From an uncultured Candidatus Saccharibacteria bacterium (GTDB lineage Bacteria; Patescibacteriota; Minisyncoccia; Portnoybacterales; UBA2143), in contig CAYPQZ010000014.1 in NCBI GenBank assembly GCA_964413015.1, positions 459 through 64,458 of the forward strand: 64,000 nucleotides of DNA, given 5' to 3'. The notes below the pieces were generated by a model that did not search any database, was not told the origin of the DNA, and saw only the letters and a program-made list of their open reading frames with translations. Each line of letters begins with the position of its first letter. Position 1 is the first letter of the stretch. Shown here piece after piece: positions 4 to 62,768 of this stretch. The position numbers and the translations under genes were made by a program.

Positions 4-459
4 ATGTTTGTTAAACAACAAGAGAAAAAAGAATACGAACAGAAATTACTTGACGTTGCTCGGGTTGTCAGGGTTATGGCTGGCGGCCGGCGCTTTAGAT
101 TCAGGGCAACGGTGGTTATTGGAAACCGGAAAGGCAAAGTTGGTTTAGGCGTGTCCAAGGGACAGGATATTAGCTTAGCTGTTGAAAAGGCCGTTCTGAA
201 TGCGGAAAAGAATATTATTCAGGTCAATTTGAATGAAGGAACAATCCCTCATGAATCAGAGGCAAAATTCGGCAGTGCCAAGGTTTTGCTTAAACCGGGC
301 GTTAAAGGTAAAGGAATTGTTGCCGGAGGCTCAGTTAGAATAGTCTGTGATTTAGCCGGGATAAGCAGTGTTTCAGGCAAGGCTTTAGGCAAGACTAAGA
401 ACAAACTAAATAATGCGCAAGCAACCATTAAGGCCCTGAAAAATTTAAAGACGAAATAG
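4..459 (+). CDS. rpsE: 30S ribosomal protein S5
   Basis: GGRRFRFRATVVIGNRKGKVGLGVSKG motif typical of S5. Start lies at the window edge and may be truncated. Confidence 0.9.
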   Translation: MFVKQQEKKEYEQKLLDVARVVRVMAGGRRFRFRATVVIGNRKGKVGLGVSKGQDISLAVEKAVLNAEKNIIQVNLNEGTIPHESEAKFGSAKVLLKPGVKGKGIVAGGSVRIVCDLAGISSVSGKALGKTKNKLNNAQATIKALKNLKTK

Positions 460-463
460 ATTT

Positions 464-940
464 ATGCAATTGCATCAATTGGGACCAACTCATTATAGGA
501 AATCTCGTAAACGTATTGGCCGTGGCGGTAAAAAAGGGACCTATTCCGGCCAAGGCATTAAGGGGCAGAAATCTCGTGCCGGGAAAAAACCACGACCGGG
601 CTTTGCCGGAGGAGACACTTCTTTAAGTATGCGTTTACCTAAAAAAAGAGGTGCTGTTGGCCGTCACAAAACTACCAAAACAAGGAAAGGAGTGCGTCTT
701 AACAGATTAAAACTTCAAGGCAAGCCGGTGATTCTTAATTTGGAAGATATTAAGCGAAAGTTTAAGAACGACGAGGTGGTCTCTCCCAAAAGTTTGTTAG
801 ACAAGAAATTGATTGGTAAAATAAAAGGGAGAATCCCCCGTGTAAAGATTTTAGGCAGGGGGGATATGCCTAAAAAATTAATCATTAAGGGTTGTCAGGT
901 ATCAAAGCAAGCTATGGAGAAAATTAAGAAAACGGTTTAG
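464..940 (+). CDS. rplO: 50S ribosomal protein L15
   Basis: N-terminus RKSRKRIGRGGKKGTYSGQG is typical of L15. It directly follows S5 with no L30 gene between them. Confidence 0.9.
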   Translation: MQLHQLGPTHYRKSRKRIGRGGKKGTYSGQGIKGQKSRAGKKPRPGFAGGDTSLSMRLPKKRGAVGRHKTTKTRKGVRLNRLKLQGKPVILNLEDIKRKFKNDEVVSPKSLLDKKLIGKIKGRIPRVKILGRGDMPKKLIIKGCQVSKQAMEKIKKTV

Positions 941-8759: not shown

Positions 8760-9182
8760 ATGATTGGTTTTCAGAAAGCCGCTGTTCTATTCAGCATATT
8801 TTTCCTCTTTTTATTAGGGGCTAATTTGGCTTACGCGATTGGGTTTGAAGGTCCCATAGTTCCTTGCGGCACTGAATCTAATCCGGAAAATTGTACTCTT
8901 TGTCATTTATGGGAGTTAATCAGCAATATTATTAATTTCATTACCTTAAATTTGGCTTTACCGGTAGCGGCTGTTCTATTTATTGTTGCCGGTATTATTT
9001 TTATAGTTGCGGGCGATAATGAAGAAAAAATTAATTTAGCAAAAACGATTTTCAAAAATACGGTTATTGGGTTGGTTATTATCTTCTGCAGTTGGCTGTT
9101 AGTTGACACTTTGGTTAAAACAATTGCCGGCAATTTGCAAAAAATTATTGGCGCCTGGAATGATTTTCCTAAATGCGATTAG
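8760..9182 (+). CDS. small secreted two-TM protein with paired Cys, possibly a VirB2/TrbC-like pilin
   Basis: Signal peptide, CGT...C..C segment, two hydrophobic helices. Followed by an intrinsic terminator. Family assignment is tentative. Confidence 0.5.
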   Translation: MIGFQKAAVLFSIFFLFLLGANLAYAIGFEGPIVPCGTESNPENCTLCHLWELISNIINFITLNLALPVAAVLFIVAGIIFIVAGDNEEKINLAKTIFKNTVIGLVIIFCSWLLVDTLVKTIAGNLQKIIGAWNDFPKCD

Positions 9183-15889: not shown

Positions 15890-16411
15890 ATGAGTAACAA
15901 AGAAGGATTTACTTTAATTGAGCTGTTGGTCGTTATAGCTATTGTCGGTCTTTTGGCCAGTATTGTTTTGGTCAGTTTGAGTAATGCTCGGGAAAAAGCA
16001 AGAGACGCTAAAAGATTATCAGACGTCCATCAAATAATTCTTGCTCTAGAAATGTATTACGATGCTAACGGTCGTTATCCTTCTATCTCCGGCGATGATT
16101 GTTGTAACGGTTGGGACCAAGGGCCATGCGGCACAGACCCATTCATTGGCGCTTTAGAAACAGCTAATTTAGTAAACAAAGTTCCGATTGACCCGAAAGG
16201 TGGTTCTGGCACTAATTGTTATGGATACAATTATTATCGTTATGGAGCCGGTAGCTATGATTGTGATGCTTCACGGAGACCTTTCTATGTCTTGGGGATT
16301 CGCGATATGGAAAACAGCGGCCGACCGCATCCGAATAGCCCTGGCTGGAGTTGCCCTTTACGAAATTGGCAGAATGAATTTGACTGGGTAACCGGCGGAT
16401 TTGAAAAATAG
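15890..16411 (+). CDS. type IV pilin / pseudopilin (prepilin N-terminal methylation domain)
   Basis: Class III signal peptide MSNKEGFTLIELLVVIAIVGLLASIV (G/F cleavage site with Glu+5). Cys/Gly/Tyr-rich C-terminal domain. Confidence 0.85.
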   Translation: MSNKEGFTLIELLVVIAIVGLLASIVLVSLSNAREKARDAKRLSDVHQIILALEMYYDANGRYPSISGDDCCNGWDQGPCGTDPFIGALETANLVNKVPIDPKGGSGTNCYGYNYYRYGAGSYDCDASRRPFYVLGIRDMENSGRPHPNSPGWSCPLRNWQNEFDWVTGGFEK

Positions 16412-20705: not shown

Positions 20706-21248
20706 ATGCCTAAACAGATACAACAGGGAAAAAATTGGTACGTCCTTCATACCTATTCTAATTACGAAGAAGCTGTGGCCAGGAATCTGAAACAGCGGAT
20801 TGAGTCAATGGGCATGGAAGACAAGATTTTTAATGTTTTAATCCCGACCGAGAAGAAAATTAAGATTAAGTCAGGCAAGCGCTACGTGGTTGAAGAAAAA
20901 ATCTATCCCGGCTATGTTTTAGTGGAAATGATTGTGACTGACGATTCTTGGTATGTTGTCAGAAACACTCCTCGGGTGACCGGTTTTATCGGCGCCGGGA
21001 CGATTCCAACGCCCATTTCCAAAGATGAGATTAAATCTTTACAGAAACGAATGGGTGTGGAAGAACCGAAGTACAAGATTGATGTGGTTGTGGGCAATGC
21101 AGTTAAGATTATTGACGGGCCGTTTAAGGACTATGACGGCAAAATTTCTGAAGTTGACGAGAAGCGCGGTAAAATCAAAGTGCTAGTTTCAATGTTCGGC
21201 CGGGAAACGCCGGTTGAATTAGATTTTTTACAAGTGAAGAAAATATAA
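20706..21248 (+). CDS. nusG: transcription termination/antitermination factor NusG
   Basis: NGN domain ([11 protein letters not shown]) plus C-terminal KOW domain ([18 protein letters not shown]). Confidence 0.9.
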
Positions 21249-21250
21249 AC

Positions 21251-21673
21251 ATGGCTAAGGAAATTAAAACAATTATAAAGCTTCAGATTCAGGCCGGGCA
21301 GGCTAATCCGGCGCCGCCGGTTGGTCCGGCTTTGGGCCAACACGGCTTGAACATCCAGGACTTCTGCACTAAGTTTAATGAAGCTACCAAAGAGATGCCC
21401 GGCGATGTGATTCCGGTGGAAATTACGGTTTACGAAGACCGGACTTTTAGCTTTAAATTGAAAACGCCGCCGGCTTCTGATTTGTTAAAAAAAGCGGCCG
21501 GTTTAGAAAAGGGCTCCGGGGATCCATTAAAAAACAAAGTGGGCAAAGTGACTAAAGAGCAGATTCGTCAAATTGCCGAGAAGAAAATGCCTGATCTGAA
21601 TGCCTACAATTTAGAAGAAGCGGAAAAAATCATAGAGGGCACGGCGCGCTCTATGGGGATTGAGGTAAAATAG
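21251..21673 (+). CDS. rplK: 50S ribosomal protein L11
   Basis: [32 protein letters not shown]. Confidence 0.9.
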
Positions 21674-21839
21674 GGATTGAAGTAAAATAAAGTTTATAGG
21701 AGGGACAGAAAATAATCTGTCCTTTTAAGTTCATTTAAAATTAAGAAAGGAGATGATAGCTGTGGAAAGATTAACCTCGCACCAGGAAAAATTCGTTGCG
21801 GGGCTTTATTTTTCCCTTTTTTTAGAGTAGGATAAAAAT

Positions 21840-23060
21840 ATGTCCGATGCCAGGATTTTTAATTTAATTAAACAGGAATATACCCGTCATCAAGAGGGAC
21901 TTAATTTGATTGCCTCGGATAATTATGCTAGTCCGGCGGTTCGTCAGGCAGTCGGGAGCATTTTGAGCGCCCGTTATGCCGAGGGCTATCCTGAAAAAAG
22001 ATATTATTCGGGCCAGCGCTACATTGACCAGATTGAAAAAATAGCCATTGCTCGGGCTAAAAAACTTTTTAAAGCGAATTATGCCAATGTTCAGGCGCAC
22101 TCCGGCTCTAATGCCAATCAAGCCGCCTATTTTGCTCTATTAAACCCAGGCGACAAGGTTTTGGCCATGCGCATTGACCAAGGCGGACATTTATCTCACG
22201 GGGCGAAAATTAATTTTTCCGGCCGCTTTTATAATTTCGTTTTTTATGGCTTAGACAAGAAAACTCAGCAGATTGATTACAATCAGATTGAAAAAATCGT
22301 TTGGAAAGAAAAGCCAAGATTAATCGTGGCCGGCGCTTCCAGCTATCCTCGCCAGATTGATTTTGCTAAGTTCGGCCGAATAGCCAAATCAATGGGTGTT
22401 TACTTAATGGGGGATATTGCCCACACGGCTGGTCTGGTGGCGACTGGCTTGCACCCGCATCCCTTCCCTTATTGCGATGTGGTTACCGCGACTACTCATA
22501 AGACGCTCCGGGGTGCTCGGGGCGGCCTGATTTTATCTAACAACAAAGAGATAGCTGACAAAATAGACAAGGCGGTTTTCCCTGGGCTTCAAGGCGGCCC
22601 CTTGCAGAATGAGATTGTTGGCAAAGCGGTTGCTTTAAAAGAAGCTAGCCAGAAGCAATTCGTTGTTTATCAAAAACAGGTGATTAAGAACGCCCAAGTT
22701 TTGGCTGAAATGCTTTTAGAACAAGGATTTGATTTAGTTTCCGGCGGCACCGACAACCATCTTATCCTAATTGATTTAACCAAGCTGGGATTCTCCGGAA
22801 AACAGGCTCAGGAATCCTTGGAATCAGCTAATCTTTACGTAAATCGCAACGTTGTCCCTTATGAGAAACGCTCTAAATGGGAAACCTCGGGTATTCGAAT
22901 TGGCACGCCGGCGATAACTACTAAAGGATTAAAAGGCAGAGAAGTTAAACAAGTTGCTCTTTGGATTAGCCAAATTCTTAAAGACATTAACAACCAATCA
23001 TTACAACGCCGGATTAAGGGAAAAGTGATTAGAATGGCTAAGCAATTTCCAGTTTTGTAG
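21840..23060 (+). CDS. glyA: serine hydroxymethyltransferase
   Basis: PLP site TTTHKTLRGARGG; typical SHMT length and motifs. Confidence 0.9.
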   Translation: MSDARIFNLIKQEYTRHQEGLNLIASDNYASPAVRQAVGSILSARYAEGYPEKRYYSGQRYIDQIEKIAIARAKKLFKANYANVQAHSGSNANQAAYFALLNPGDKVLAMRIDQGGHLSHGAKINFSGRFYNFVFYGLDKKTQQIDYNQIEKIVWKEKPRLIVAGASSYPRQIDFAKFGRIAKSMGVYLMGDIAHTAGLVATGLHPHPFPYCDVVTATTHKTLRGARGGLILSNNKEIADKIDKAVFPGLQGGPLQNEIVGKAVALKEASQKQFVVYQKQVIKNAQVLAEMLLEQGFDLVSGGTDNHLILIDLTKLGFSGKQAQESLESANLYVNRNVVPYEKRSKWETSGIRIGTPAITTKGLKGREVKQVALWISQILKDINNQSLQRRIKGKVIRMAKQFPVL

Positions 23061-35005: not shown

Positions 35006-35357
35006 CCAAGCAAGTGGATAGTCGGTCGCCTTAGGCGACAGGAAAGTCCGGGCACCATATAATGGCAGTGGGTAACGCCCACCGTCCGCAAGGATAGGGA
35101 AAGTGCCACAGAGACAATGTTTCTTCATTTTAGGGGGAATCTCCTAAAAAGGGGTAAAAGTGAAAAGTGAGGGCCTAAGAATCCTCTCATCCGGCAGAAA
35201 TGTCGCGATGCGGTAAACCCTGCCTGGTGCAAGAGCAAAGTGTAGCTCGCTTGAGCCTGAGAGTAATCTCCGGCCTAGATAGATGACTATCCAAAACCCG
35301 CCTTTGCCCTACGGGCTTCGGCGAGGTGAGACAGAACCCGGCTTATAGCTTGCTTGG
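35006..35357 (+). ncRNA. rnpB: RNase P RNA (bacterial type A)
   Basis: P1 pairing ccaagcaag...cttgcttgg. Conserved GGAAAGTCCGGGC (P4 5' strand), ACAGAGA, AAAAGTGAAA and ACAGAACCCGGCTTA (P4 3' strand). Followed by a T-run. Confidence 0.85.
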
Positions 35358-35404
35358 GTTTTTTTATTCTTGATTTTTAGGTAAAAATCATTAAAATCAA
35401 AGTA

Positions 35405-47779: not shown

Positions 47780-47856
47780 TCTCCAAATCTTTGATTTGTT
47801 TAAATTATTGAGAACTCGCCGCAATTTTGCCAAAGGCAAAATTTGGGCGGGTAAAG

Positions 47857-47930
47857 GCGGGATTAGTATAGTGGTATTATACTTGCTTCCCAAGCAAGAG
47901 ACACGAGTTCGATCCTCGTATCCCGCTCCA
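47857..47930 (+). tRNA. tRNA-Gly (CCC)
   Basis: Acceptor GCGGGAT/ATCCCGC, anticodon stem CTTGC/GCAAG, loop TTCCCAA, T-loop TTCGATC, CCA encoded. Confidence 0.85.
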
Positions 47931-48002
47931 GCCCACGTAGCTCAGTGGTAGAGCAACTCTCTCGTAAAGAGTAGGTCGTCAGTTCAATCCTGACCGTGGG
48001 CT
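47931..48002 (+). tRNA. tRNA-Thr (CGT)
   Basis: GCCCACG TA GCTC AGTGGTA GAGC A ACTCT CTCGTAA AGAGT ... GTCAG TTCAATC CTGAC CGTGGGC T. Confidence 0.85.
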
Positions 48003-48039
48003 CATTTACTAAAATAGAGAGGTATGCTAAAATGACAAA

Positions 48040-48804
48040 ATGGAAGATTTAACCGGTAAATTGAAAGGTGAATATGATAAGCATAAGGCCATTCTATCCG
48101 TTTATGCCGGGGCCGGAGGGACTGACGCTCAAGACTGGGCGGAGATGCTTTTGAAGATGTATCTGAAATTTACCGCTAAAGAGAAATGGCCGGCTAAGGT
48201 GGTTCAGATTAAAGAAGGCAAAGAGGCTGGAATTAAAAACGCAACTTTAGTTATTGGACAATCTTATAGCTATGGCTTATTAAAAGGCGAGTCAGGTGTT
48301 CACCGTTTAGTACGCTTGTCTCCTTTTAATGCTGATAATCTCAGACATACTTCATTTGCTTTGGTTGAGGTTATGCCGGAGCTTGAAGAAATTAAGGAAA
48401 TTAATCTTAGATCGGAAGATTTACGGGTTGAAACCTATAAAGCCAGTGGACCGGGAGGCCAGTACGTTAATAAAACTGAGTCGGCTGTTCGGCTGACTCA
48501 TCTTCCTACCGGACTAACCGCCGCTTGCCAAAGTGAACGTTTGCAAGGAGAAAATAAAAAAAGAGCCATGAAATTGTTAGCCAGTAAGCTTCACCAGCAT
48601 CAATTAAAAGGCCGACAAAAGCAAAAGAATGAGTTACGTGGCCAGCCTCAGGCTGTTGAATGGGGGAGCCAAATCCGTTCTTATGTACTGCATCCTTATC
48701 AGATGGTCAAAGACCACCGGATTGGCGTTAAATCGGGCGATCCGAAAGCTGTTTTGAATGGCAAATTGGATAAATTTGTAAGGGGCTTTATTCAAAAGTT
48801 CTGA
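48040..48804 (+). CDS. prfB: peptide chain release factor 2, N-terminally truncated (domains 2-4 only)
   Basis: SPF stop-codon recognition motif (RLSPFNADNLRHTSF) and GGQ (SGPGGQYVNKTESAVRLTH). Begins ~20 aa before the AGAGGTDAQDW block, so ~110 aa of domain 1 are absent. Confidence 0.8.
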   Translation: MEDLTGKLKGEYDKHKAILSVYAGAGGTDAQDWAEMLLKMYLKFTAKEKWPAKVVQIKEGKEAGIKNATLVIGQSYSYGLLKGESGVHRLVRLSPFNADNLRHTSFALVEVMPELEEIKEINLRSEDLRVETYKASGPGGQYVNKTESAVRLTHLPTGLTAACQSERLQGENKKRAMKLLASKLHQHQLKGRQKQKNELRGQPQAVEWGSQIRSYVLHPYQMVKDHRIGVKSGDPKAVLNGKLDKFVRGFIQKF

Positions 48805-48814
48805 CAAAAATCTC

Positions 48815-49498
48815 ATGATAGTTTTTAAAAAAGTTTCCAAAATATATCTGCCTAACTGTCGAGCTCTGGATGATATTAATCTTGAAATTGACGATAAAGA
48901 ATTTGTCTCCATTGCCGGCCGTTCGGGCGCTGGGAAGTCAACCTTGATTAAGCTTTTAATTAAAGAAGATTTTCCGACAAAAGGAAACATTTTTTGGGGC
49001 AAACAGGACATCGGTCTTATCCGAGGCAGGGATTTGCCGATTTGGCGCAGGCAAATAGGCATGATTTTTCAAGACTTCCGCCTTTTGCCGAACAAAACTG
49101 CTTACGAAAATGTTGCTTTTGCCATGGAGGTAAGTGATTGGAAGAAACATGAAATTGAACGGGACGTGCCCCAACTTTTAAAACTGGTTAATCTGCTGGA
49201 CCGGGCGGATCATTTCCCCCATCAGCTTTCCGGCGGCGAACAGCAACGGGTGGCGATTGCCCGAGCCTTGGCGCATCGTCCGGATATTTTAGTAGCTGAC
49301 GAACCGACCGGCAATTTAGATTTGCTGCATACCTGGGAAATCATCCGGCTTTTAATTAAGATTAATGAGTTAGGAACAACGGTGGTTTTGTCCACTCATG
49401 ACCGTGAGATTATTAACGGTTTGGATAAACGGGTAATTACTATTGAAAAAGGGAAAATAATTAAAGATGACGAAAATGGAAAGTATATCCTATTTTAA
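48815..49498 (+). CDS. ftsE: cell division ATP-binding protein FtsE
   Basis: ABC ATPase Walker [10 protein letters not shown], signature LSGGEQQR, Walker B ILVADEPT; paired with the downstream FtsX. Confidence 0.85.
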
Positions 49499-49501
49499 TT
49501 C

Positions 49502-50410
49502 ATGTTTACATCCTTAGCTAGGTTAATAAAATCGGGCTGTCTGAATTCTTGGAGGAATAAATGGCTTTCAGTAGCCACCATTTTAGTTATGGGCTTGGCT
49601 ATTTTCGGCATTACTACCTTACTATTAATCAATGTTTTAATTGATTCCTTGATTACTTACTTAGAAGACAAGGTAGATGTTAGCGTGTATTTCAATTTAG
49701 GCGTTTCCGAGGAACAGGTTTTATCTGTTAGGGATAGTTTGGTTGAATTAAGCCAGGTGAAAAGCGTTGAGTATATTTCAACTGAAGAAGCGCTGAATAA
49801 TTTTAAGGAAAAACATAGAGACAATCAGGTTTTAATGCAAAGTTTGCAGGAATTGGACAGTAATCCCTTAGAAGCGGCTTTAAACATAAAGGCGCAGGTG
49901 ACTTCTCAATATGAATCAATAGTTAGCTTTTTGGAGAAAAAGGAGTATCAAGAAATTATTGACAAGATAAATTATCAGGAGAATCGAATAGCAATAGTTC
50001 GGCTGGCCTCAATCACTAATACCATTCGTCAGGTCGGTTTTGTTATTTTGCTTATCCTAGCCGTTCTGGCTGTCCTGGTTACCTTTAACACTATTCGTCT
50101 AACCATTTATAGCGCTCGCAAGGAAATTAAAGTGATGAAGCTGGTTGGCGCCAGCAATTGGTTTATCCGGGGGCCGTTTATTGTGGAAGGAGCGATTTAT
50201 GGGATTATCGCGGTTGCCTTAACCTTGACAGTATTCGTTCCTTTGCTCTGGTATTTCTCTCCTAGAATTACCGGATATCTGCCCGGAACCGACCTGTTCT
50301 ATTTTTTCCAGACTAACTTTCTGACTTTGCTGCTGGTTCAGCTGATTACCGGAATCCTTATGGGCACAATTAGCAGTTTGATCGCTATCCACAGATATTT
50401 GGAGAATTAA
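49502..50410 (+). CDS. ftsX: cell division permease-like protein FtsX
   Basis: TM1, large periplasmic loop, then three C-terminal TM helices (FtsX-like permease family). Confidence 0.75.
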   Translation: MFTSLARLIKSGCLNSWRNKWLSVATILVMGLAIFGITTLLLINVLIDSLITYLEDKVDVSVYFNLGVSEEQVLSVRDSLVELSQVKSVEYISTEEALNNFKEKHRDNQVLMQSLQELDSNPLEAALNIKAQVTSQYESIVSFLEKKEYQEIIDKINYQENRIAIVRLASITNTIRQVGFVILLILAVLAVLVTFNTIRLTIYSARKEIKVMKLVGASNWFIRGPFIVEGAIYGIIAVALTLTVFVPLLWYFSPRITGYLPGTDLFYFFQTNFLTLLLVQLITGILMGTISSLIAIHRYLEN

Positions 50411-54094: not shown

Positions 54095-56566
<2,472 letters not shown>

Positions 56567-56695: not shown

Positions 56696-57730
56696 ATGGG
56701 ACAACTACACAAGATTTGCAATTTGACTAAAGAACCTTGTTTAATACAGACAGGGTTTTTTAGTTTTATGAATACACAACAATTACTATATAAGAAAGCA
56801 CCACGATCCATTGACATTTTTAATAGAAATACAAAGAAAGCACCACGATCTAGTAACAATTTAGCTATTTCAAGTATAATTCCTGAGTTTTTAATCTACG
56901 CTAAATTTGAAAAAAGATTTGCCAATGAGTCCATAATTAAATACCAAGACTGTTTTAGGGGTTTTATAAGAGAAGTTGGAGATGTTTTTTTAAGTGATTT
57001 AAATACAGAGCATTTTAGTCAATTAAAGCAGAATCTTTTTAGCCGGGGGATTAGTGAAGCAAGGGTAGCTAGTGTTATTTTCTCAATGAAGAGTTTATTA
57101 AATTATTGTAAAGAGGTTAAGCATTTAAAAGTAATTAGTTCTAGGAAAATAAGATCTCCAAGACGGCCCAGGAGGGAGGTTATTTTTTTAAGTAATGAAG
57201 AAATTAGAAAATTTATAAAAGTAATAGATATAAAATCAACTTATGGATTAAGATTCAGAACATTAGTTGAAGTTCTTCTTGGTACTGGAATGAGAATATC
57301 AGAAGCATTATCTTTAGATCGTGATTCAATTGATTATGCAAAACGAGAAGTTAAAATTATCGGTAAAGGGAATAAAGAAAGGATTGTGTTTTTTAATAAT
57401 AGATCTCTAGAGTGGATTAGAAAGTATCTATCCGAGAGATGGGATGCTGAACAACCTATATTTATAACGCATGGAAACAATAGACGATTAAGTCGTAGTG
57501 GCGTTATGAGAGATTTTAAGAGATACAGGGATAAAGCCGGTATTAAAAAGAAAGTTAGTCCTCATATACTTCGTCATACTGTAGCTACAAATCTACTTTT
57601 TAATGGTTGTCCAATTTCGCATGTAAAAGAAATTCTTGGCCATACGCGCTTAGAAACAACTTGTAAATATTATTTAGGATTAGATAAGCGAAAAGCCAAA
57701 CAAGCACATAATAAGTTTCTACAATATTGA
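56696..57730 (+). CDS. tyrosine site-specific recombinase (phage integrase family), copy 1
   Basis: Core-binding SAM-like N-domain. Catalytic R (RISEALSL), H-x-x-R (HILRHT), and LGH...TT.KYY with the Tyr nucleophile. Alternative start at 56768. Confidence 0.85.
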   Translation: MGQLHKICNLTKEPCLIQTGFFSFMNTQQLLYKKAPRSIDIFNRNTKKAPRSSNNLAISSIIPEFLIYAKFEKRFANESIIKYQDCFRGFIREVGDVFLSDLNTEHFSQLKQNLFSRGISEARVASVIFSMKSLLNYCKEVKHLKVISSRKIRSPRRPRREVIFLSNEEIRKFIKVIDIKSTYGLRFRTLVEVLLGTGMRISEALSLDRDSIDYAKREVKIIGKGNKERIVFFNNRSLEWIRKYLSERWDAEQPIFITHGNNRRLSRSGVMRDFKRYRDKAGIKKKVSPHILRHTVATNLLFNGCPISHVKEILGHTRLETTCKYYLGLDKRKAKQAHNKFLQY

Positions 57731-57772
57731 TAGAAATAAAATCAAAAGTATCTTTTTCGTAGGTATATAGGG

Positions 57773-57801
57773 TTGACAATCTTTAAAAAGAAATGATAAT
57801 A
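57773..57801 (+). promoter_or_regulatory. sigma70-like promoter
   Basis: TTGACA-16/17 nt-GATAAT immediately upstream of the 57809 ORF. Confidence 0.4.
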
Positions 57802-57808
57802 TGTCAAT

Positions 57809-58234
57809 ATGAAAGATAAAAGGAATAATCTGATTATTAGAAAATCTGATTATAAAAGGAATAAAGGAGCCTTTATCTGGGAAGGTAAAAAAGAAGATTA
57901 TACAGAGCTTAAGGAAACAAGAAAATGGAGATGTCTCAAGTGCCACCGAATACTTGCAAATAATGTAGAGAATGATATAATTACGGTTAAAGGAGAAGGA
58001 AGACAAGAAATTAAGATCAGATTTAAAGCAATACGATGTATTTGCCCAGGTTCAAAAAGAAAAGGAACTGAAGGATGTAATACTGATAACAGACTTGTCT
58101 CTTATGTAGATCTCCTGTCGGAAAAATACGAACCGATTCAACTCGTTAAAACTGATTTAAAAATACAAAAAGAAATCGAAGAAAGTAGAAATAAAAATAT
58201 TCAGAATAAGATAGAAGAATTGAGTAATTTGTAA
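57809..58234 (+). CDS. hypothetical Cys-rich (zinc-ribbon-like) protein between the two recombinase genes
   Basis: CLKCH..., CICPGS..., GC spacing suggests a Zn ribbon. No family assignment. Confidence 0.45.
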   Translation: MKDKRNNLIIRKSDYKRNKGAFIWEGKKEDYTELKETRKWRCLKCHRILANNVENDIITVKGEGRQEIKIRFKAIRCICPGSKRKGTEGCNTDNRLVSYVDLLSEKYEPIQLVKTDLKIQKEIEESRNKNIQNKIEELSNL

Positions 58235-58316
58235 TTAACAAGATGGTCAGGTTAGGAGGATGCTATATGTACCCTCTTAAAAAAATCTAGTATTTGGCTA
58301 GTTGTAAAACGTGTTA

Positions 58317-58352
58317 TTAATCCCGTGCATAATTTTATGTGCGGGATTTTTA
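58317..58352 (+). terminator. hairpin plus T-run (terminator)
   Basis: atcccgtgcat-aatttt-atgtgcgggat (11-bp stem with two G-U pairs) followed by ttttaatt. Confidence 0.45.
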
Positions 58353-58355
58353 ATT

Positions 58356-59288
58356 ATGAAGATAAGAGAATTACTAAAAGTAATAAAAGAGGGAACAAAA
58401 GGAAAGAAATACCTTATTAGTATTTTAATACCTGATTTTATAGACTGGCTTTCCCTGGATTTAAATTTGGCTCCTCAAACATTAGAGAAGCATAAGGAAT
58501 GTCTCGATCATGTTATTCGTTATATTGGAGATTTAGACATAAGAGAGATGACATCTGTTGATGTTTTAAATATAAAAAAAGAGATGAATAAAAAGAAATT
58601 AAGCCCAGCACGTATTAATAGTATTATTTTTGCACTACGAAAATTATTAAGATTTTGCGATTCTGTTTTAAATATTAAGGTCCTTGATCCAGCTAAAATG
58701 ATTCCATTAAAAATCAAACAAAAGCAGGTTGTATATTTAACTAATAAAGAAATCGATATATTTAGAAAAGCAATTAATACATCAACAAGATACGGGAAGC
58801 GTTTTAGAGCCTTGTTTGAAACTTTGCTTAGTTCGGGTTTACGCATAAGCGAAGCTTTGTCTTTAGATCGTGATTCAATTAATTACGAAAAGAAAGAGGC
58901 TAATATTGTTGGTAAAGGAGGAAGACCTAGGACTGTTTATTTCAATGATGATGCAATAACTCGAATCAATATTTATTTAGAAACTAGATGGGACGATGAA
59001 CCAGCACTTTTTGTTACTCATGGTGGTGAACCAACTAGATTAAAAAGAGGAAGCGTTGAGCAAGAATTTAGTAGGTATAGGAAATTTGTAAATATAAAGA
59101 AAAAAGTTACTGCCCATACTCTAAGACATTCGTTCTGCACAAATTTACATCATCATGGACTTGATATCCTATGGATTAAAGAATTAGCCGGGCATAGAGA
59201 TATTCAAACTACAGCTAAATATTACATTGGTACAAGCAAAAAGAAAATCAAAGAAGCCCACCGTAAATATTTGAATTTTAATAATTAA
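58356..59288 (+). CDS. tyrosine site-specific recombinase, copy 2 (paralog of 56696)
   Basis: Same architecture and motifs (LRISEALSLDRDSI, HTLRHSF, LAGH...TTAKYY); ~45% identity to copy 1 by eye. Start moved from 58311. Confidence 0.85.
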   Translation: MKIRELLKVIKEGTKGKKYLISILIPDFIDWLSLDLNLAPQTLEKHKECLDHVIRYIGDLDIREMTSVDVLNIKKEMNKKKLSPARINSIIFALRKLLRFCDSVLNIKVLDPAKMIPLKIKQKQVVYLTNKEIDIFRKAINTSTRYGKRFRALFETLLSSGLRISEALSLDRDSINYEKKEANIVGKGGRPRTVYFNDDAITRINIYLETRWDDEPALFVTHGGEPTRLKRGSVEQEFSRYRKFVNIKKKVTAHTLRHSFCTNLHHHGLDILWIKELAGHRDIQTTAKYYIGTSKKKIKEAHRKYLNFNN

Positions 59289-59326
59289 TTAATAAGTTAA
59301 TTTTCGTTTAAGGAGTCAGACATAAC

Positions 59327-60850
59327 TTGAAAAAGTTAGTTACTTATAACGGTAGCATGTCTGGCTTCCTAAATGGGAATAGCTACCGTTATATGAATAA
59401 AGAATTAGGAACATTTAATGAGATAATAGAAGAAGCAAAGAAGAATAAAACATTTAATACGGGGTCAATAGTACCTAATGAAAGCGAAGTAGAAGAAATG
59501 GAAAGAGATGATGAATATTCAAGAGAAGAAAAGAAAAAGAAAATCATAAAAGCTAAAGCAAAAATTAAAGATAATATTAAGCAGAAAAAGAAAGTGCAAA
59601 AATTACTTTTAAATCCAAGGTTACTTTATAACATAAAAAGTCAATTTGAGAAATTAGGGATTGCTGGAGAAACTAGAAATTCTTTAATGATTTATTTGGC
59701 TCTAACAAGTCGAATGATGGACAAACCAATAAGTATAGTTAATAAAGGTGATTCTTCTTCCGGTAAATCTTATATGATTAATTTGATTCTAAGGCTTTTT
59801 CCTAAAAACGCTTATATTGAAATGACTGCCGCAACTGCTCAAAGCTTTTATCATGCTGGAAAGGATGATTTTAAACATAAGATTATTATTATTTATGAGA
59901 GAAAGGGCTCAGAGAATAGCGATTATTCAATTCGTTCTTTTCAATCCGAAGGAAATTTAAAGCTTCAAATTACAGTGAAGAATAAAAAAACAGGCAATTT
60001 CGAAGTTAAACGCAAAGAGGTACTCGGGCCAGTTGGCTTTTTAACAACTACTACTGATCCACACATTCATGATGAAAATGAAACCAGGGTTTTTAGCCTA
60101 TACACCAATGAGAGTGTAATACAAACGGCAAGAATATTTAAAGCAAGTAGTGCGGGATATAAAGGAATTAATCCAATTAGTAATCTCAGATTAAAGAAAT
60201 TTAAAAAACTCCAGCGATTATTAAAAACATATAAGATTTCAATTCCTTATGTGGACGACCTAATAAGCGTTTTCCCTCATAAACCAGTTAGAGTTAGAAG
60301 AGATTTTCCAAGATTTCTTACTTTAATATCGGTTGTTACTTTACTACACCAACATCAAAGAGAAAAAAAAATTATTAAAAAAGAAGAATATTTAGTGTCA
60401 AGTCTAGCTGATTATTATATCGCCAAGATTATCGCTGAAAGAATGTTAAAGCAAACTATTTTTGAGATAGCTCCAAAGACAAAACAAGTTATTAAAGTCG
60501 CCAAAAAGATTATTAATTTAAAAATTAAAAAGCAAACCCTAAATGCTAAGAGTGGGATAAGTGTAATGGCCGGGCTAAATCCAACCTTTAATATTACAGA
60601 ATTAGCCAGAAAGATTGGATGGGAGTATAAAACAACTTACAAATGGTTCAAACCAGCGTTAGAGAAAGGTTATTTTACCATAGAAGAAGAACAGAGAGGT
60701 AGACAAGCTGCAACGTATAAAATCAATAAAATGAAAAATAATCAAATAATATTGCCAGAGGTTAATAATATGATTAAGAAATATCCGCTTAATAAAGAAA
60801 GAATCTATAATCCAATTACAGGAGAATACTTGGATTTAGGTAAAAAGTGA
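59327..60850 (+). CDS. P-loop NTPase, putative plasmid/phage replication (primase-helicase/D5-like) protein
   Basis: Walker A KGDSSSGKSY, and a Walker B-like IIIIYER. Size and context fit replication proteins of mobile elements. Family is uncertain. Confidence 0.5.
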   Translation: MKKLVTYNGSMSGFLNGNSYRYMNKELGTFNEIIEEAKKNKTFNTGSIVPNESEVEEMERDDEYSREEKKKKIIKAKAKIKDNIKQKKKVQKLLLNPRLLYNIKSQFEKLGIAGETRNSLMIYLALTSRMMDKPISIVNKGDSSSGKSYMINLILRLFPKNAYIEMTAATAQSFYHAGKDDFKHKIIIIYERKGSENSDYSIRSFQSEGNLKLQITVKNKKTGNFEVKRKEVLGPVGFLTTTTDPHIHDENETRVFSLYTNESVIQTARIFKASSAGYKGINPISNLRLKKFKKLQRLLKTYKISIPYVDDLISVFPHKPVRVRRDFPRFLTLISVVTLLHQHQREKKIIKKEEYLVSSLADYYIAKIIAERMLKQTIFEIAPKTKQVIKVAKKIINLKIKKQTLNAKSGISVMAGLNPTFNITELARKIGWEYKTTYKWFKPALEKGYFTIEEEQRGRQAATYKINKMKNNQIILPEVNNMIKKYPLNKERIYNPITGEYLDLGKK

Positions 60851-61261
60851 TGAGGTTCTTGTAGGTATGTTTTATGGATACGGAATAACCAACTTGCACT
60901 TTTATAAGAAAATAAACTTAATATTTTGTTACTACACTTCTATAAGAATGAACAAGAGAATATTAGTTTAATGGCTCTATTAATCAATTAAAAATAAAAA
61001 AAGTGGAAGTAGAGATTTCTATATTTACAAAAACATATCCATAAAGCTTTTGTATTGTACGTAGAAGCGTAGTAACAAATAAAAATATGGATAATTCTAA
61101 TATTATATGAAAAAAAAGAAGCAAAAAGAAAAAGAATCTTTAAGAATTAAGAGATTAAAAGCTAAAAATAGAAGAGACATTGGATATTCAATGGTTGATT
61201 TACTTCCTTTAAGCTTGAGTATTAGTAAAAAATTGAATAAGAAATAGTTTTATATTAATCC

Positions 61262-61810
61262 ATGAATAACAAATCTGTCAGAAATCGTCAGAAAATAACA
61301 CCAAAACAAATAGATTACTGGACGGAACCAAAACGGCAACTTTTTGAAATGGTTCTTGAAAGTTCTTTAAAGCGTCATGAGATGGCCAAGGAACTTAATA
61401 TAAGTACTAGAACGGTTCAAAGATGGATTAAGGATCCTTCGTTCCATGAGGCCTTAAGCATGAGCTCTGATGCTTGGAAAATGCAGATTACAGCACGGCG
61501 CTTAGATCTTATTAAAGAGCTTATAAAAGGATTAAGAAAAAGAATGGAAATATCAATAAATCAGGTATCTCCAGAAGTTTTACTAACAGAATATAGAAAG
61601 CTTTTATTTGATATCCCATTGAGAATATCTTCGGTTGCTATTCAACAAAATGTTTTCCCTAAAAAAATAACATCGCTTCCATGTTTATCTCCTAAAAAAA
61701 TAAAAATTGTAGAAAAAGCTGTTTTAAAATCACAGGGATATAACGAATTAAATGTCTCAAAAGAAGATATAGAAGCTGTTAGGAAAGAAAATGCATTAAA
61801 TAAACAGTAG
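61262..61810 (+). CDS. HTH-domain protein (terminase small subunit-like or regulator)
   Basis: AKELNISTRTVQRWIKDP helix-turn-helix near the N-terminus. Confidence 0.5.
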   Translation: MNNKSVRNRQKITPKQIDYWTEPKRQLFEMVLESSLKRHEMAKELNISTRTVQRWIKDPSFHEALSMSSDAWKMQITARRLDLIKELIKGLRKRMEISINQVSPEVLLTEYRKLLFDIPLRISSVAIQQNVFPKKITSLPCLSPKKIKIVEKAVLKSQGYNELNVSKEDIEAVRKENALNKQ

Positions 61811-61860
61811 TGTAAGCGCAAGAAAAGATTCTTTTTCTTAAAAATTAATAAGAGAAAAAT

Positions 61861-61896
61861 AAAAAAAGACCGACAGGGTATTAGCCCATCGGCCTT
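61861..61896 (-). terminator. rho-independent terminator (minus strand; weakly bidirectional)
   Basis: On the minus strand: ggccgaugggcuaauacccugucgguc followed by U7, just after the stop of the 61913-62278 gene. Confidence 0.55.
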
Positions 61897-61912
61897 TCTT
61901 GCTTCTCAGCGA

Positions 61913-62278
61913 CTAGAAGGGGAGATCTTCAATTTTTTCTATAACAGGAATTTCTCCAATTTCGTCAATCTGTTTTGTGAAATTACATCCAGGATAGGTA
62001 ATACATCCAAGGAAAGGACCATTTTTACCACGCCTTAATACCATTGGAGCTCCACATTTTTCGCAAAGCTGTTCTTCTTTGTTTTTCTTTTTATCATTAT
62101 TTGCTGTCATATTGCCATTAAATACTTTCTTTAAATCTTTGTATAGCTTATCGGCTTCTTGAACTGAATCTGCGCGAATATTTATCATTAGCGATTTTCT
62201 AATCACCTTCCCATCTGGTTTTTTATCAATTGTCTCATTTATCTGAATTCGATTAAAATCATGATTAATTGTAGCCAT
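61913..62278 (-). CDS. small protein with topoisomerase-type C4 zinc finger
   Basis: CEKCGAPMVLRRGKNGPFLGCITYPGC matches the zf-C4_Topoisom pattern. Confidence 0.55.
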   Translation of the reverse strand: MATINHDFNRIQINETIDKKPDGKVIRKSLMINIRADSVQEADKLYKDLKKVFNGNMTANNDKKKNKEEQLCEKCGAPMVLRRGKNGPFLGCITYPGCNFTKQIDEIGEIPVIEKIEDLPF

Positions 62279-62375
62279 AATTTTTATTAGAATAAATTAA
62301 TTGATTATTTCTAATTAAGCTGTTCGACTTTTTAGAATTGTAAATTCTAACAGCTTACAAGATAAAAGCGTAATC

Positions 62376-62768
62376 TTACTTTTCTTTTTCAATCAGCTTT
62401 AGCATTTTCATTGATAGCCATTTTCTTTTGTTAAAGATAATATGATCGTAAAGTTCAATATCTAGGATCTCGCCAGCTTTCTTTAATCTTTGCGTGACTT
62501 CTATATCATCCTGCGATGGTTCAAGATCACTGCTTGGATGATTGTGCAGTACAATTATCATCTTTGCTGAATTCATCACTGCTGGTTTAAATGTTTCTCT
62601 TGGATGGACGAGACAAGCATTGAGAGTTCCTAAACTAATCAATTCTGCTTTTGTAATCTTTGTTCGTGAGTCAAAATAGATTCCAATAAAATGCTCTTTA
62701 TACCAATCGGTTATTAATGTTCTAGCTATTCTTACTGATTCAATTGGATGATCAATAATTTTAGCCAT
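62376..62768 (-). CDS. RadC-like JAB/MPN domain protein
   Basis: JAMM-like motif HNHPS..EPS..D in a 130-aa protein; typical of RadC in mobile elements. Confidence 0.72.
   Translation of the reverse strand: MAKIIDHPIESVRIARTLITDWYKEHFIGIYFDSRTKITKAELISLGTLNACLVHPRETFKPAVMNSAKMIIVLHNHPSSDLEPSQDDIEVTQRLKKAGEILDIELYDHIIFNKRKWLSMKMLKLIEKEK

What the first reader, a model, noticed from the sequence alone, without database searches (positions are those of the whole stretch)
48003..48804. Release factor 2 lacking the entire N-terminal domain 1
The prfB ORF is 254 aa (typical RF2 is ~365). It starts only ~20 residues before the conserved AGAGGTDAQDW block, which is residue ~125 in E. coli RF2. The SPF and GGQ motifs are intact. 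The 37 nt between tRNA-Thr and the start codon leave no room for the usual upstream frameshift-regulated segment, and there is no CUU-UGA-C shift site. Domain 1 mediates RF3 and L7/L12-stalk interactions, so a naturally domain-1-less RF2 would be functionally interesting. It could relate to reduced ribosomes in CPR. Alternatively it is a truncation caused by the tRNA insertion upstream.
Basis: partly seen in the sequence, partly recalled or inferred. Interest (0 to 1): 0.55.

Follow-up and report, generated by a model that had tools for sequence, protein, structure and literature searches.

The report
Release factor 2 without domain 1
A lineage of ultra-small Parcubacteria (CPR) bacteria carries a conserved stop-codon release factor RF2 that has lost its N-terminal domain and its frameshift self-regulation, a deletion otherwise known only from laboratory constructs.

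Summary
The ORF 48040-48804 (+) encodes a 254-aa RF2 that aligns with residues about 118-362 of full-length RF2. The SPF and GGQ motifs are intact. Domain 1 and the CUU-UGA frameshift site are absent. It is not an artefact, a pseudogene or the result of a tRNA insertion. More than 100 sequence clusters from Portnoybacteria and related Parcubacteria, from many samples, have the same 242-260-aa form with the same start. They form one clade in a neighbour-joining tree, and dN/dS among them is 0.03-0.19. All sit in the same neighbourhood: DUF4012-MurJ-LepA-DivIC-tRNA-Gly-tRNA-Thr-prfB-ftsE-ftsX-tRNA-Gln. A sister lineage has that same neighbourhood, tRNAs included, but a normal 367-aa frameshifted prfB. 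The short form therefore arose once, most simply by a deletion inside the gene that removed the frameshift site and domain 1. UGA is still used as a stop codon in the window. The factor most likely terminates at UGA/UAA without any RF3 or L11 contact through domain 1. I could not check prfA, prfC or a second prfB elsewhere in the genome. I found no published description. Verdict: a new natural variant of a known protein, of moderate interest.

The parts
48040..48804 (+). prfB, short form: 254-aa RF2 made of domains 2, 3 and 4 only; stop codon TGA
   Evidence: AlphaFold2 model with pLDDT 82 matches ribosome-bound RF2 at TMq 0.87
48040..48078 (+). N-terminal 13 residues (MEDLTGKLKGEYD). They form a short helix and linker that end in the conserved Y12-D13 of the domain 1/2 junction. 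The start position is conserved in 88 of 91 short homologues.
48319..48327 (+). SPF tripeptide 'anticodon' (residues 94-96), the RF2-type codon-recognition motif
   Evidence: sequence; invariant in alignment A1
48454..48462 (+). GGQ catalytic motif (residues 139-141)
   Evidence: sequence; invariant in alignment A1
48005..48033 (+). Promoter-like site TTTACT-17 nt-TAAAAT with an upstream TG. It ends 6 nt before the ATG, and no Shine-Dalgarno sequence lies at a usable distance, which suggests a leaderless or nearly leaderless prfB mRNA.
   Evidence: equivalent motifs at the same place in L002, L003, L082, L085, L086 and in the full-length sister L087. Consensus match only; not tested experimentally.
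47931..48003 (+). tRNA-Thr(cgt), the conserved upstream neighbour of prfB in both short-form and full-length lineages
47857..47930 (+). tRNA-Gly(ccc), a conserved upstream neighbour
48815..49498 (+). ftsE, the conserved downstream neighbour. In L002, L003 and L086 its ATG overlaps the prfB TGA as ATGA.
49502..50410 (+). ftsX, a conserved downstream neighbour

Best explanation
This is the organism's orthologous, functional prfB. An ancestor of a Parcubacteria subclade (Portnoybacteria and relatives) most likely suffered one deletion inside the gene. That deletion removed most of ORF0, the CUU-UGA +1 frameshift site and all of domain 1, about 113 codons. It joined the original start region, which sits directly behind its own promoter, in frame to the domain 1/2 linker (G-K/E-Y-D). 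The product keeps the codon-reading superdomain 2/4 with SPF and the catalytic domain 3 with GGQ. Inferred: it binds the A site, reads UGA and UAA and hydrolyses peptidyl-tRNA like ordinary RF2. Inferred: it makes no domain-1 contact with the L11 N-terminal domain or with RF3, so it leaves the ribosome spontaneously or through RRF/EF-G action. Inferred: its synthesis is no longer autoregulated by frameshifting. Shown here: the anatomy, the fold, clade-wide conservation, purifying selection, orthologous position, single origin in a neighbour-joining tree, and use of UGA as a stop codon. Not shown: catalytic activity, RF3 independence and the exact deletion breakpoints.
For: Domain 1 is precisely absent while the rest is canonical RF2. 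The AlphaFold2 model superposes on ribosome-bound RF2 (8p16 TMq 0.87, E 4e-28). The best 107 homologue clusters (64-91% identity) are all 242-275 aa, apart from one 305-aa call that is an upstream over-extension. They come from JGI, ENA, NCBI and Logan data and are named RF2 of Portnoybacteria, Parcubacteria or Patescibacteria. The start codon is at the same alignment column in 88 of 91. dN/dS is 0.03-0.19 with saturated dS. SPF, GGQ and about 70 other columns are invariant. In a neighbour-joining tree the short forms make one clade, sister to full-length forms P0108-P0120. The synteny DUF4012-MurJ-LepA-DivIC-tRNA-Gly-tRNA-Thr-prfB-ftsE-ftsX-tRNA-Gln is shared by short-form loci (window, L082, L085, L086; partly L002 and L003) and by the full-length sister L087. 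In L087 prfB starts 38 nt after tRNA-Thr, with the ORF0 MENIEKELKLFQQKVLKTKDCL followed by CTT TGA T. TGA ends 7 of 61 ORFs in the window, including prfB, and those ORFs abut the next genes. Published work reports that engineered RF1 and RF2 without domain 1 still recognise stop codons and release peptides but lose the RF3 interplay (Mora et al. 2003, as cited in PMC1586002). Domain 1 bridges the L11 N-terminal domain and RF3 domain 3 (PMC3677378).
Against: No biochemical data exist. The rest of the genome could not be searched, so a second full-length prfB, a separately encoded domain 1, or the state of prfA and prfC are unknown. The NCBIfam prfB score (370.5) only just reaches the cut-off (370), as expected when a third of the model is unmatched. 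[quoted passage not shown] Loss should therefore carry a cost, and no compensation has been shown. The only hints are a higher net positive charge (+9.8 against +5.9 in the sister group) and clade-specific K61 and K231. The tree is a distance tree without support values.
Confidence: 0.8

Rival explanations
1. A specialised paralogue, such as a PrfH-like or rescue-type release factor, works alongside a normal full-length RF2 encoded elsewhere in the genome.
For: PrfH also lacks domain 1 (PMC1586002; PMC6514570). Only 64 kb of the genome plus short flanks could be inspected.
Against: The gene sits at the orthologous prfB locus of the full-length sister lineage. It keeps the RF2 SPF motif. It scores 370.5 bits on the prfB model against 98.5 on the PrfH model, whose cut-off is 166.65. 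There is no rtcB neighbour. No full-length RF2 more than 67% identical appears among the hits, and the long forms found belong to sister organisms with the same synteny. These genomes are very small.
Confidence: 0.07
2. Split gene: domain 1 is encoded separately and supplied in trans.
For: Not excluded genome-wide. The database search with a domain-1 profile was insensitive and did not even recover known full-length forms.
Against: tblastn and an HMM search with domain 1 of the sister forms found nothing in any frame of the window (best E 0.014 and 0.35; the best HMM hit is the coiled-coil DivIC-like ORF and the best tblastn hit lies in a glycosyltransferase gene, neither specific). Nothing is encoded next to prfB in six related loci. 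Domain 1 is known to be dispensable for catalysis.
Confidence: 0.05
3. Artefact or decaying pseudogene: a mis-assembly, a wrongly called start, or a recent truncation caused by the tRNA genes.
For: prfB is often miscalled because of its frameshift. A few isolated short calls in other phyla start at the internal MFSGEYD and look like miscalls.
Against: The exact protein occurs on 11 contigs, and relatives occur in dozens of independent assemblies. An in-frame stop and two tRNA genes lie directly upstream. dN/dS is far below 1. The start is conserved. The tRNAs also precede the full-length sister gene.
Confidence: 0.03

Closest known systems
Canonical bacterial RF2 (prfB; NCBIfam TIGR00020; structures such as 1gqe, 4v5e, 8p16)
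   Same: 43-49% identity over domains 2-4. SPF and GGQ motifs. Same fold as the ribosome-bound form. Orthologous locus next to ftsE and ftsX. UGA is used as a stop codon in the genome.
   Different: The whole N-terminal helical domain 1 (about 110 aa) is absent. There is no ORF0, CUU-UGA +1 frameshift or internal SD-like stimulator. A promoter-like site abuts the start codon.
Engineered N-terminally truncated E. coli RF1 and RF2 (Mora, Zavialov, Ehrenberg and Buckingham 2003, Mol Microbiol 50:1467; read only as cited in PMC1586002)
   Same: The same architecture, domains 2-4 only. Those constructs are reported to keep codon-specific peptide release and to lose RF3-stimulated recycling.
   Different: Those are laboratory constructs in an organism that has RF3 and grows slowly with them. 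This is a natural form that appears to be fixed in a lineage.
PrfH / RFH (TIGR03072), the RtcB-linked rescue factor
   Same: A class-I release-factor homologue that lacks domain 1 and keeps GGQ.
   Different: PrfH has a remodelled codon-recognition region, is about 200 aa long, is paired with rtcB and acts on damaged ribosomes. This protein has the RF2 SPF loop, scores below the PrfH cut-off and has no rtcB neighbour.
ArfB / ICT1 / C12orf65 (stand-alone GGQ-domain hydrolases)
   Same: GGQ domain.
   Different: They lack domains 2 and 4 and carry a C-terminal tail that probes the empty mRNA channel. The match here covers only 35 residues.

Membership tests
RF2 (prfB) | SPF tripeptide in the codon-recognition loop of domain 2 | tested here: met
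   S94-P95-F96, invariant in 50 aligned homologues
RF2 (prfB) | GGQ motif in domain 3 | tested here: met
   G139-G140-Q141, invariant
RF2 (prfB) | Curated family model reaches its cut-off | tested here: met
   TIGR00020 370.5 bits against a cut-off of 370, with only model positions 108-352 matched. The prfA models score 209-214 against cut-offs of 400-423.
RF2 (prfB) | Fold of superdomain 2/4 plus domain 3 | tested here: met
   AlphaFold2 pLDDT 82, pTM 0.70. Foldseek against ribosome-bound RF2: TMq 0.84-0.87, rmsd about 3.1 A.
RF2 (prfB) | N-terminal helical domain 1, which interacts with RF3 and L11 | tested here: not met
   Pfam PCRF matched from position 94 only. PDB alignments start at RF2 residue 118/119. 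A stop codon and tRNA genes lie upstream.
RF2 (prfB) | Programmed +1 frameshift at CUU UGA (widespread, though to my knowledge not universal, in bacterial prfB) | tested here: not met
   Absent in the window and in five other short-form loci. Present in the sister loci L087 and L088/L089 and in the CPR loci L004, L005, L007, L009, L022 and L034.
RF2 (prfB) | Orthologous genomic position | tested here: met
   Same DivIC-tRNA-Gly-tRNA-Thr-prfB-ftsE-ftsX-tRNA-Gln order as the full-length sister
RF2 (prfB) | UGA/UAA-dependent peptidyl-tRNA hydrolysis | not testable with these tools
   Indirect only: TGA ends 7 of 61 ORFs in the window
PrfH | Family model reaches its cut-off, and the gene is adjacent to rtcB | tested here: not met
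   TIGR03072 98.5 bits against a cut-off of 166.65. The neighbours are tRNAs and ftsE.
ArfB | Stand-alone GGQ domain with a basic C-terminal tail and no codon-recognition domain | tested here: not met
   36.8 bits against a cut-off of 100, with residues 119-153 matched only. Domains 2 and 4 are present.

The most novel reading that the evidence does not exclude
Termination in this Parcubacteria clade has been rewired. The only RF2 cannot touch RF3 or the L11 N-terminal domain through domain 1. The prediction is that the clade has no RF3, and that RF1 may be shortened too. If so, class-I factor turnover follows a domain-1-independent route co-adapted with the reduced CPR ribosome (no L30; possibly no L1 in this lineage). 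The extra positive charge and the clade-specific E-to-K change at residue 231 would compensate for the lost ribosome contacts.
Probability: 0.15. Interest if true: 0.7.

Novelty: new variant of a known kind. Interest (0 to 1): 0.5.

Why it matters
In the broad 2019 survey I read (PMC6514570), every canonical bacterial RF1 and RF2 is described with domain 1. Its role has been inferred from engineered deletions and ribosome structures. A whole lineage that has lived for a long time with a domain-1-less RF2 is a natural experiment. It suggests that domain 1 and frameshift autoregulation are dispensable for a free-standing translation system. It predicts RF3-independent termination in these organisms. 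It also offers a ready-made minimal RF2 for biochemistry, cryo-EM and minimal-cell or cell-free design. In practice, annotation pipelines should not flag these 250-aa prfB genes as partial.

Tried and rejected
1. Truncation by tRNA insertion. Rejected, because the same two tRNAs precede the full-length frameshifted prfB in the sister locus L087.

2. Loss of the 16S anti-SD sequence disabling the SD-stimulated frameshift and so driving the change. This idea came from PMC9297842. Not supported, because the window's 16S 3' end carries an exact GGATCACCTCCTT at 56553-56565.

3. The CTTTGAT at 47789 as a relic shift site. Rejected as chance.

4. A domain-1 remnant or separate domain-1 ORF in the window. 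None found.

5. A database-wide search for stand-alone domain 1 with a profile. It returned only six small fragments and missed the known full-length proteins, so it is uninformative.

6. A paralogue (RF1) in the window, in 89 fetched loci and in the right flank of the contig. None found. I found no way to retrieve prfA or prfC of this genome with the available tools.

7. Independent domain-1-less RF2 in other phyla. The few short representatives begin at the internal MFSGEYD or carry junk C-terminal extensions, and they look like gene-call or assembly artefacts.

8. Homology of the first nine residues to the ancestral ORF0 N-terminus (window MEDLTGKLK against L087 MENIEKELK). Suggestive, but too short and too K/E-rich to count as evidence.

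9. A conserved TGA stop of prfB as an alternative autoregulatory device. Not conserved: four of six short-form loci use TGA and two use TAA.

10. Literature searches for a prior description. None found in the library searched.

Full report
**What is there**

The ORF 48040-48804 on the + strand (ATG to TGA) encodes 254 aa. An in-frame TAA lies three codons upstream of the ATG. tRNA-Thr(cgt) ends at 48003 and is itself preceded by tRNA-Gly(ccc) (confirmed by Rfam). There is no room for more coding sequence upstream.

Pfam finds the complete RF-1 (GGQ) domain but only positions 94-194 of the 194-position PCRF model. NCBIfam's prfB model matches positions 108-352 of 353 with 370.5 bits against a cut-off of 370. 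The prfA, PrfH and ArfB models fall far below their cut-offs. Against solved structures the protein aligns end to end with RF2 residues 118-362 (B. subtilis) or 119-360 (E. coli), at E about 1e-81 to 1e-69. SPF (residues 94-96) and GGQ (139-141) are present.

An AlphaFold2 model (pLDDT 82, pTM 0.70) superposes on ribosome-bound RF2 with TM-scores of 0.84-0.87 normalised to the query. It fits the compact crystal forms less well, at 0.59.

**It is a lineage trait, not an accident**

In a search of 5.8 billion protein clusters, the best 107 hits (64-91% identity) are all 242-275 aa, apart from one 305-aa call. They come from JGI, ENA, NCBI and Logan assemblies. Where named, they are called RF2 of Candidatus Portnoybacteria, Parcubacteria group or Patescibacteria group.

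The few slightly longer calls (P0006 at 305 aa, P0009, P0086) are upstream over-extensions that read through tRNA sequence. In P0086 the extension reads GRQFESDRG, which matches the tRNA-Thr T arm.

The start methionine is at the same alignment column in 88 of 91 short forms. The consensus N-terminus is MKDLTEKLKGKYDKRNAILSIYAGAGG. One GTDB representative (L003) starts even later, at 245 aa.

Pairwise dN/dS among the six short genes for which I hold DNA is 0.03-0.19, with saturated dS. About 70 columns, including SPF and GGQ, are invariant across 50 aligned sequences. The exact window protein occurs on 11 contigs, and P0008 is listed in 56 blocks of the assembly collection.

**How it arose**

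Hits ranked 108-120 are the nearest full-length relatives, except P0117, a 246-aa short form. These long forms are 63-67% identical and carry an ordinary domain 1 with the DFW motif. In a neighbour-joining tree of the shared region, all short forms make one clade that is sister to these long forms. Other CPR RF2s lie outside: Azambacteria, Falkowbacteria, Moranbacteria, Doudnabacteria, Peribacteria and Saccharibacteria. All of those have about 100 more open codons upstream.

Gene order around the short gene is conserved: DUF4012, MurJ, LepA, DivIC, tRNA-Gly(ccc), tRNA-Thr(cgt), prfB, ftsE, ftsX, tRNA-Gln. The full-length sister locus L087 has the same order, both tRNAs included. There, prfB begins 38 nt after tRNA-Thr with the ORF0 MENIEKELKLFQQKVLKTKDCL, then CTT TGA T, and continues in the +1 frame to give a 367-aa RF2. 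The same CTTTGA site occurs in L088/L089 and in six other CPR loci.

The tRNAs are therefore older than the truncation. The simplest history is one deletion inside the gene, of length 3n+1. It would have removed the shift site and domain 1 and placed the original start region in frame with domain 2. The exact breakpoints cannot be resolved.

**Expression signals**

A sigma-70-like site, TTTACT-17 nt-TAAAAT with an upstream TG, ends 6 nt before the ATG. The same arrangement is visible in five other short-form loci and in the full-length sister. No Shine-Dalgarno sequence lies at a usable distance. This suggests a leaderless or near-leaderless mRNA, but it rests on consensus matches only.

**Is RF2 still needed?**

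In a greedy ORF set of the window, TGA ends 7 of 61 ORFs, including prfB itself. TAG ends 20 and TAA ends 34. The TGA-ended ORFs abut or overlap the next gene, so UGA is a stop codon here. The common use of TAG implies that an RF1 must exist elsewhere in the genome. That is an inference.

**Likely mechanism**

Published work, read here through PMC1586002, reports that E. coli RF1 and RF2 without the N-terminal domain keep codon specificity and peptide release but no longer stimulate nucleotide exchange on RF3. [quoted passage not shown] Cryo-EM shows domain 1 bridging the L11 N-terminal domain and RF3 domain 3 (PMC3677378).

The short factor therefore most likely reads UGA/UAA and releases the peptide in the ordinary way. 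It would then leave the ribosome without RF3, and its synthesis would not be autoregulated by frameshifting. L11 in the window has both of its domains, so the docking site has not gone with domain 1.

Two possible compensations were seen. The net charge of domains 2-4 is +9.8 in short forms, +5.9 in the sister group and -3.9 in other RF2s. Two clade-specific lysines occur: K61, and K231 at a position that is E in 95% of the other RF2s compared. Both observations are weak and untested.

**Rivals**

A PrfH-like or rescue paralogue working beside a normal RF2 is unlikely. The reasons are the orthologous position, the SPF motif and the model scores, but it is not excluded genome-wide.

A separately encoded domain 1 has no support in the window or in related loci. 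The database-wide test was uninformative.

An artefact or pseudogene is contradicted by recurrence in independent assemblies, the conserved start and dN/dS.

An idea that anti-SD loss disabled the frameshift was tested and dropped, because the 16S 3' end carries CACCUCCUU.

**Novelty**

[quoted passage not shown] Searches of the held library for release factor terms together with CPR, Patescibacteria or Parcubacteria terms, or for release factors lacking domain 1, found no description of this form. A study of CPR ribosome reduction does not use the terms 'release factor' or 'prfB'; its single 'RF2' mention was not inspected (PMC9297842).

Among the 150 best 50%-identity representatives of 1.84 billion proteins, nearly all RF2s are full length. 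The isolated short ones look like miscalls. I therefore rate this a new natural variant of a known protein.

**Limits**

- There is no genome-wide check of prfA, prfC, a second prfB or a split domain 1.
- The tree has no support values.
- Function is inferred, not measured.

Noticed in passing
window 54095-56565: The 16S rRNA gene is interrupted after ...CTTGTAC (about 55460) by an insertion of about 970 nt. The insertion carries a LAGLIDADG endonuclease ORF (55817-56356) and an Rfam group-II-intron D1-D4 hit (55787-55879). The 3' part resumes at about 56431 (ACCGCCCGTCA) and ends with an exact GGATCACCTCCTT at 56553-56565. Rfam reported the gene as complete at 54095-55494, which is misleading.
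   Followed up: partly
window 20706-23060: nusG (20706-21248) and rplK/L11 (21251-21673, both domains) are followed by glyA (21840-23060), not by rplA. This is compatible with the Parcubacteria subgroup reported to lack uL1 (PMC9297842), but L1 could be encoded elsewhere.
   Followed up: no
window 4-940: The S5 and L15 genes are adjacent with no L30 gene between them. This is the reported CPR hallmark and confirms the affiliation.
   Followed up: partly
window 48005-48039; L002, L003, L082, L085, L086, L087: A conserved -35 / extended -10 promoter-like site ends 4-8 nt before the prfB ATG, with no Shine-Dalgarno sequence. This suggests leaderless translation of prfB in both short-form and full-length lineages.
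   Followed up: partly
window prfB residues 61 and 231 (nt 48220-48222 and 48730-48732): Clade-specific lysines. K231 replaces a glutamate that is 95% conserved in the other RF2s compared. Domains 2-4 are about 4 charge units more positive than in the full-length sister group.
   Followed up: partly
window 56696-62768: Directly after the rRNA gene lies a block with two tyrosine integrases (56696-57730 and 58311-59288), several ORFs with no family match, an HTH protein, a Top1-type zinc-ribbon protein and RadC. It is probably an integrated mobile element. The same block occurs in a Mono Lake contig (L090).
   Followed up: no
L002, L003, L086 (prfB/ftsE junction): The prfB TGA stop overlaps the ftsE ATG as ATGA in three short-form loci, which suggests translational coupling. 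In the window the two genes are 10 nt apart.
   Followed up: no
window 47789-47795: CTTTGAT, identical to the RF2 shift heptamer of the sister lineage, lies four codons after the DivIC stop and upstream of the tRNAs. It is judged a chance match: the hexamer occurs 32 times on this strand, and the site is not conserved in relatives.
   Followed up: yes
window 35006-35361: RNase P RNA (bacterial class A), 211 bits, lies between the RNase H gene and the glycosyltransferase cluster.
   Followed up: no
window 15890-16411 and 8760-9182: A small protein with an N-terminal pilin-type methylation motif sits between pheS and pheT. A T4SS-pilin-like protein lies next to dnaE and ligA.
   Followed up: no
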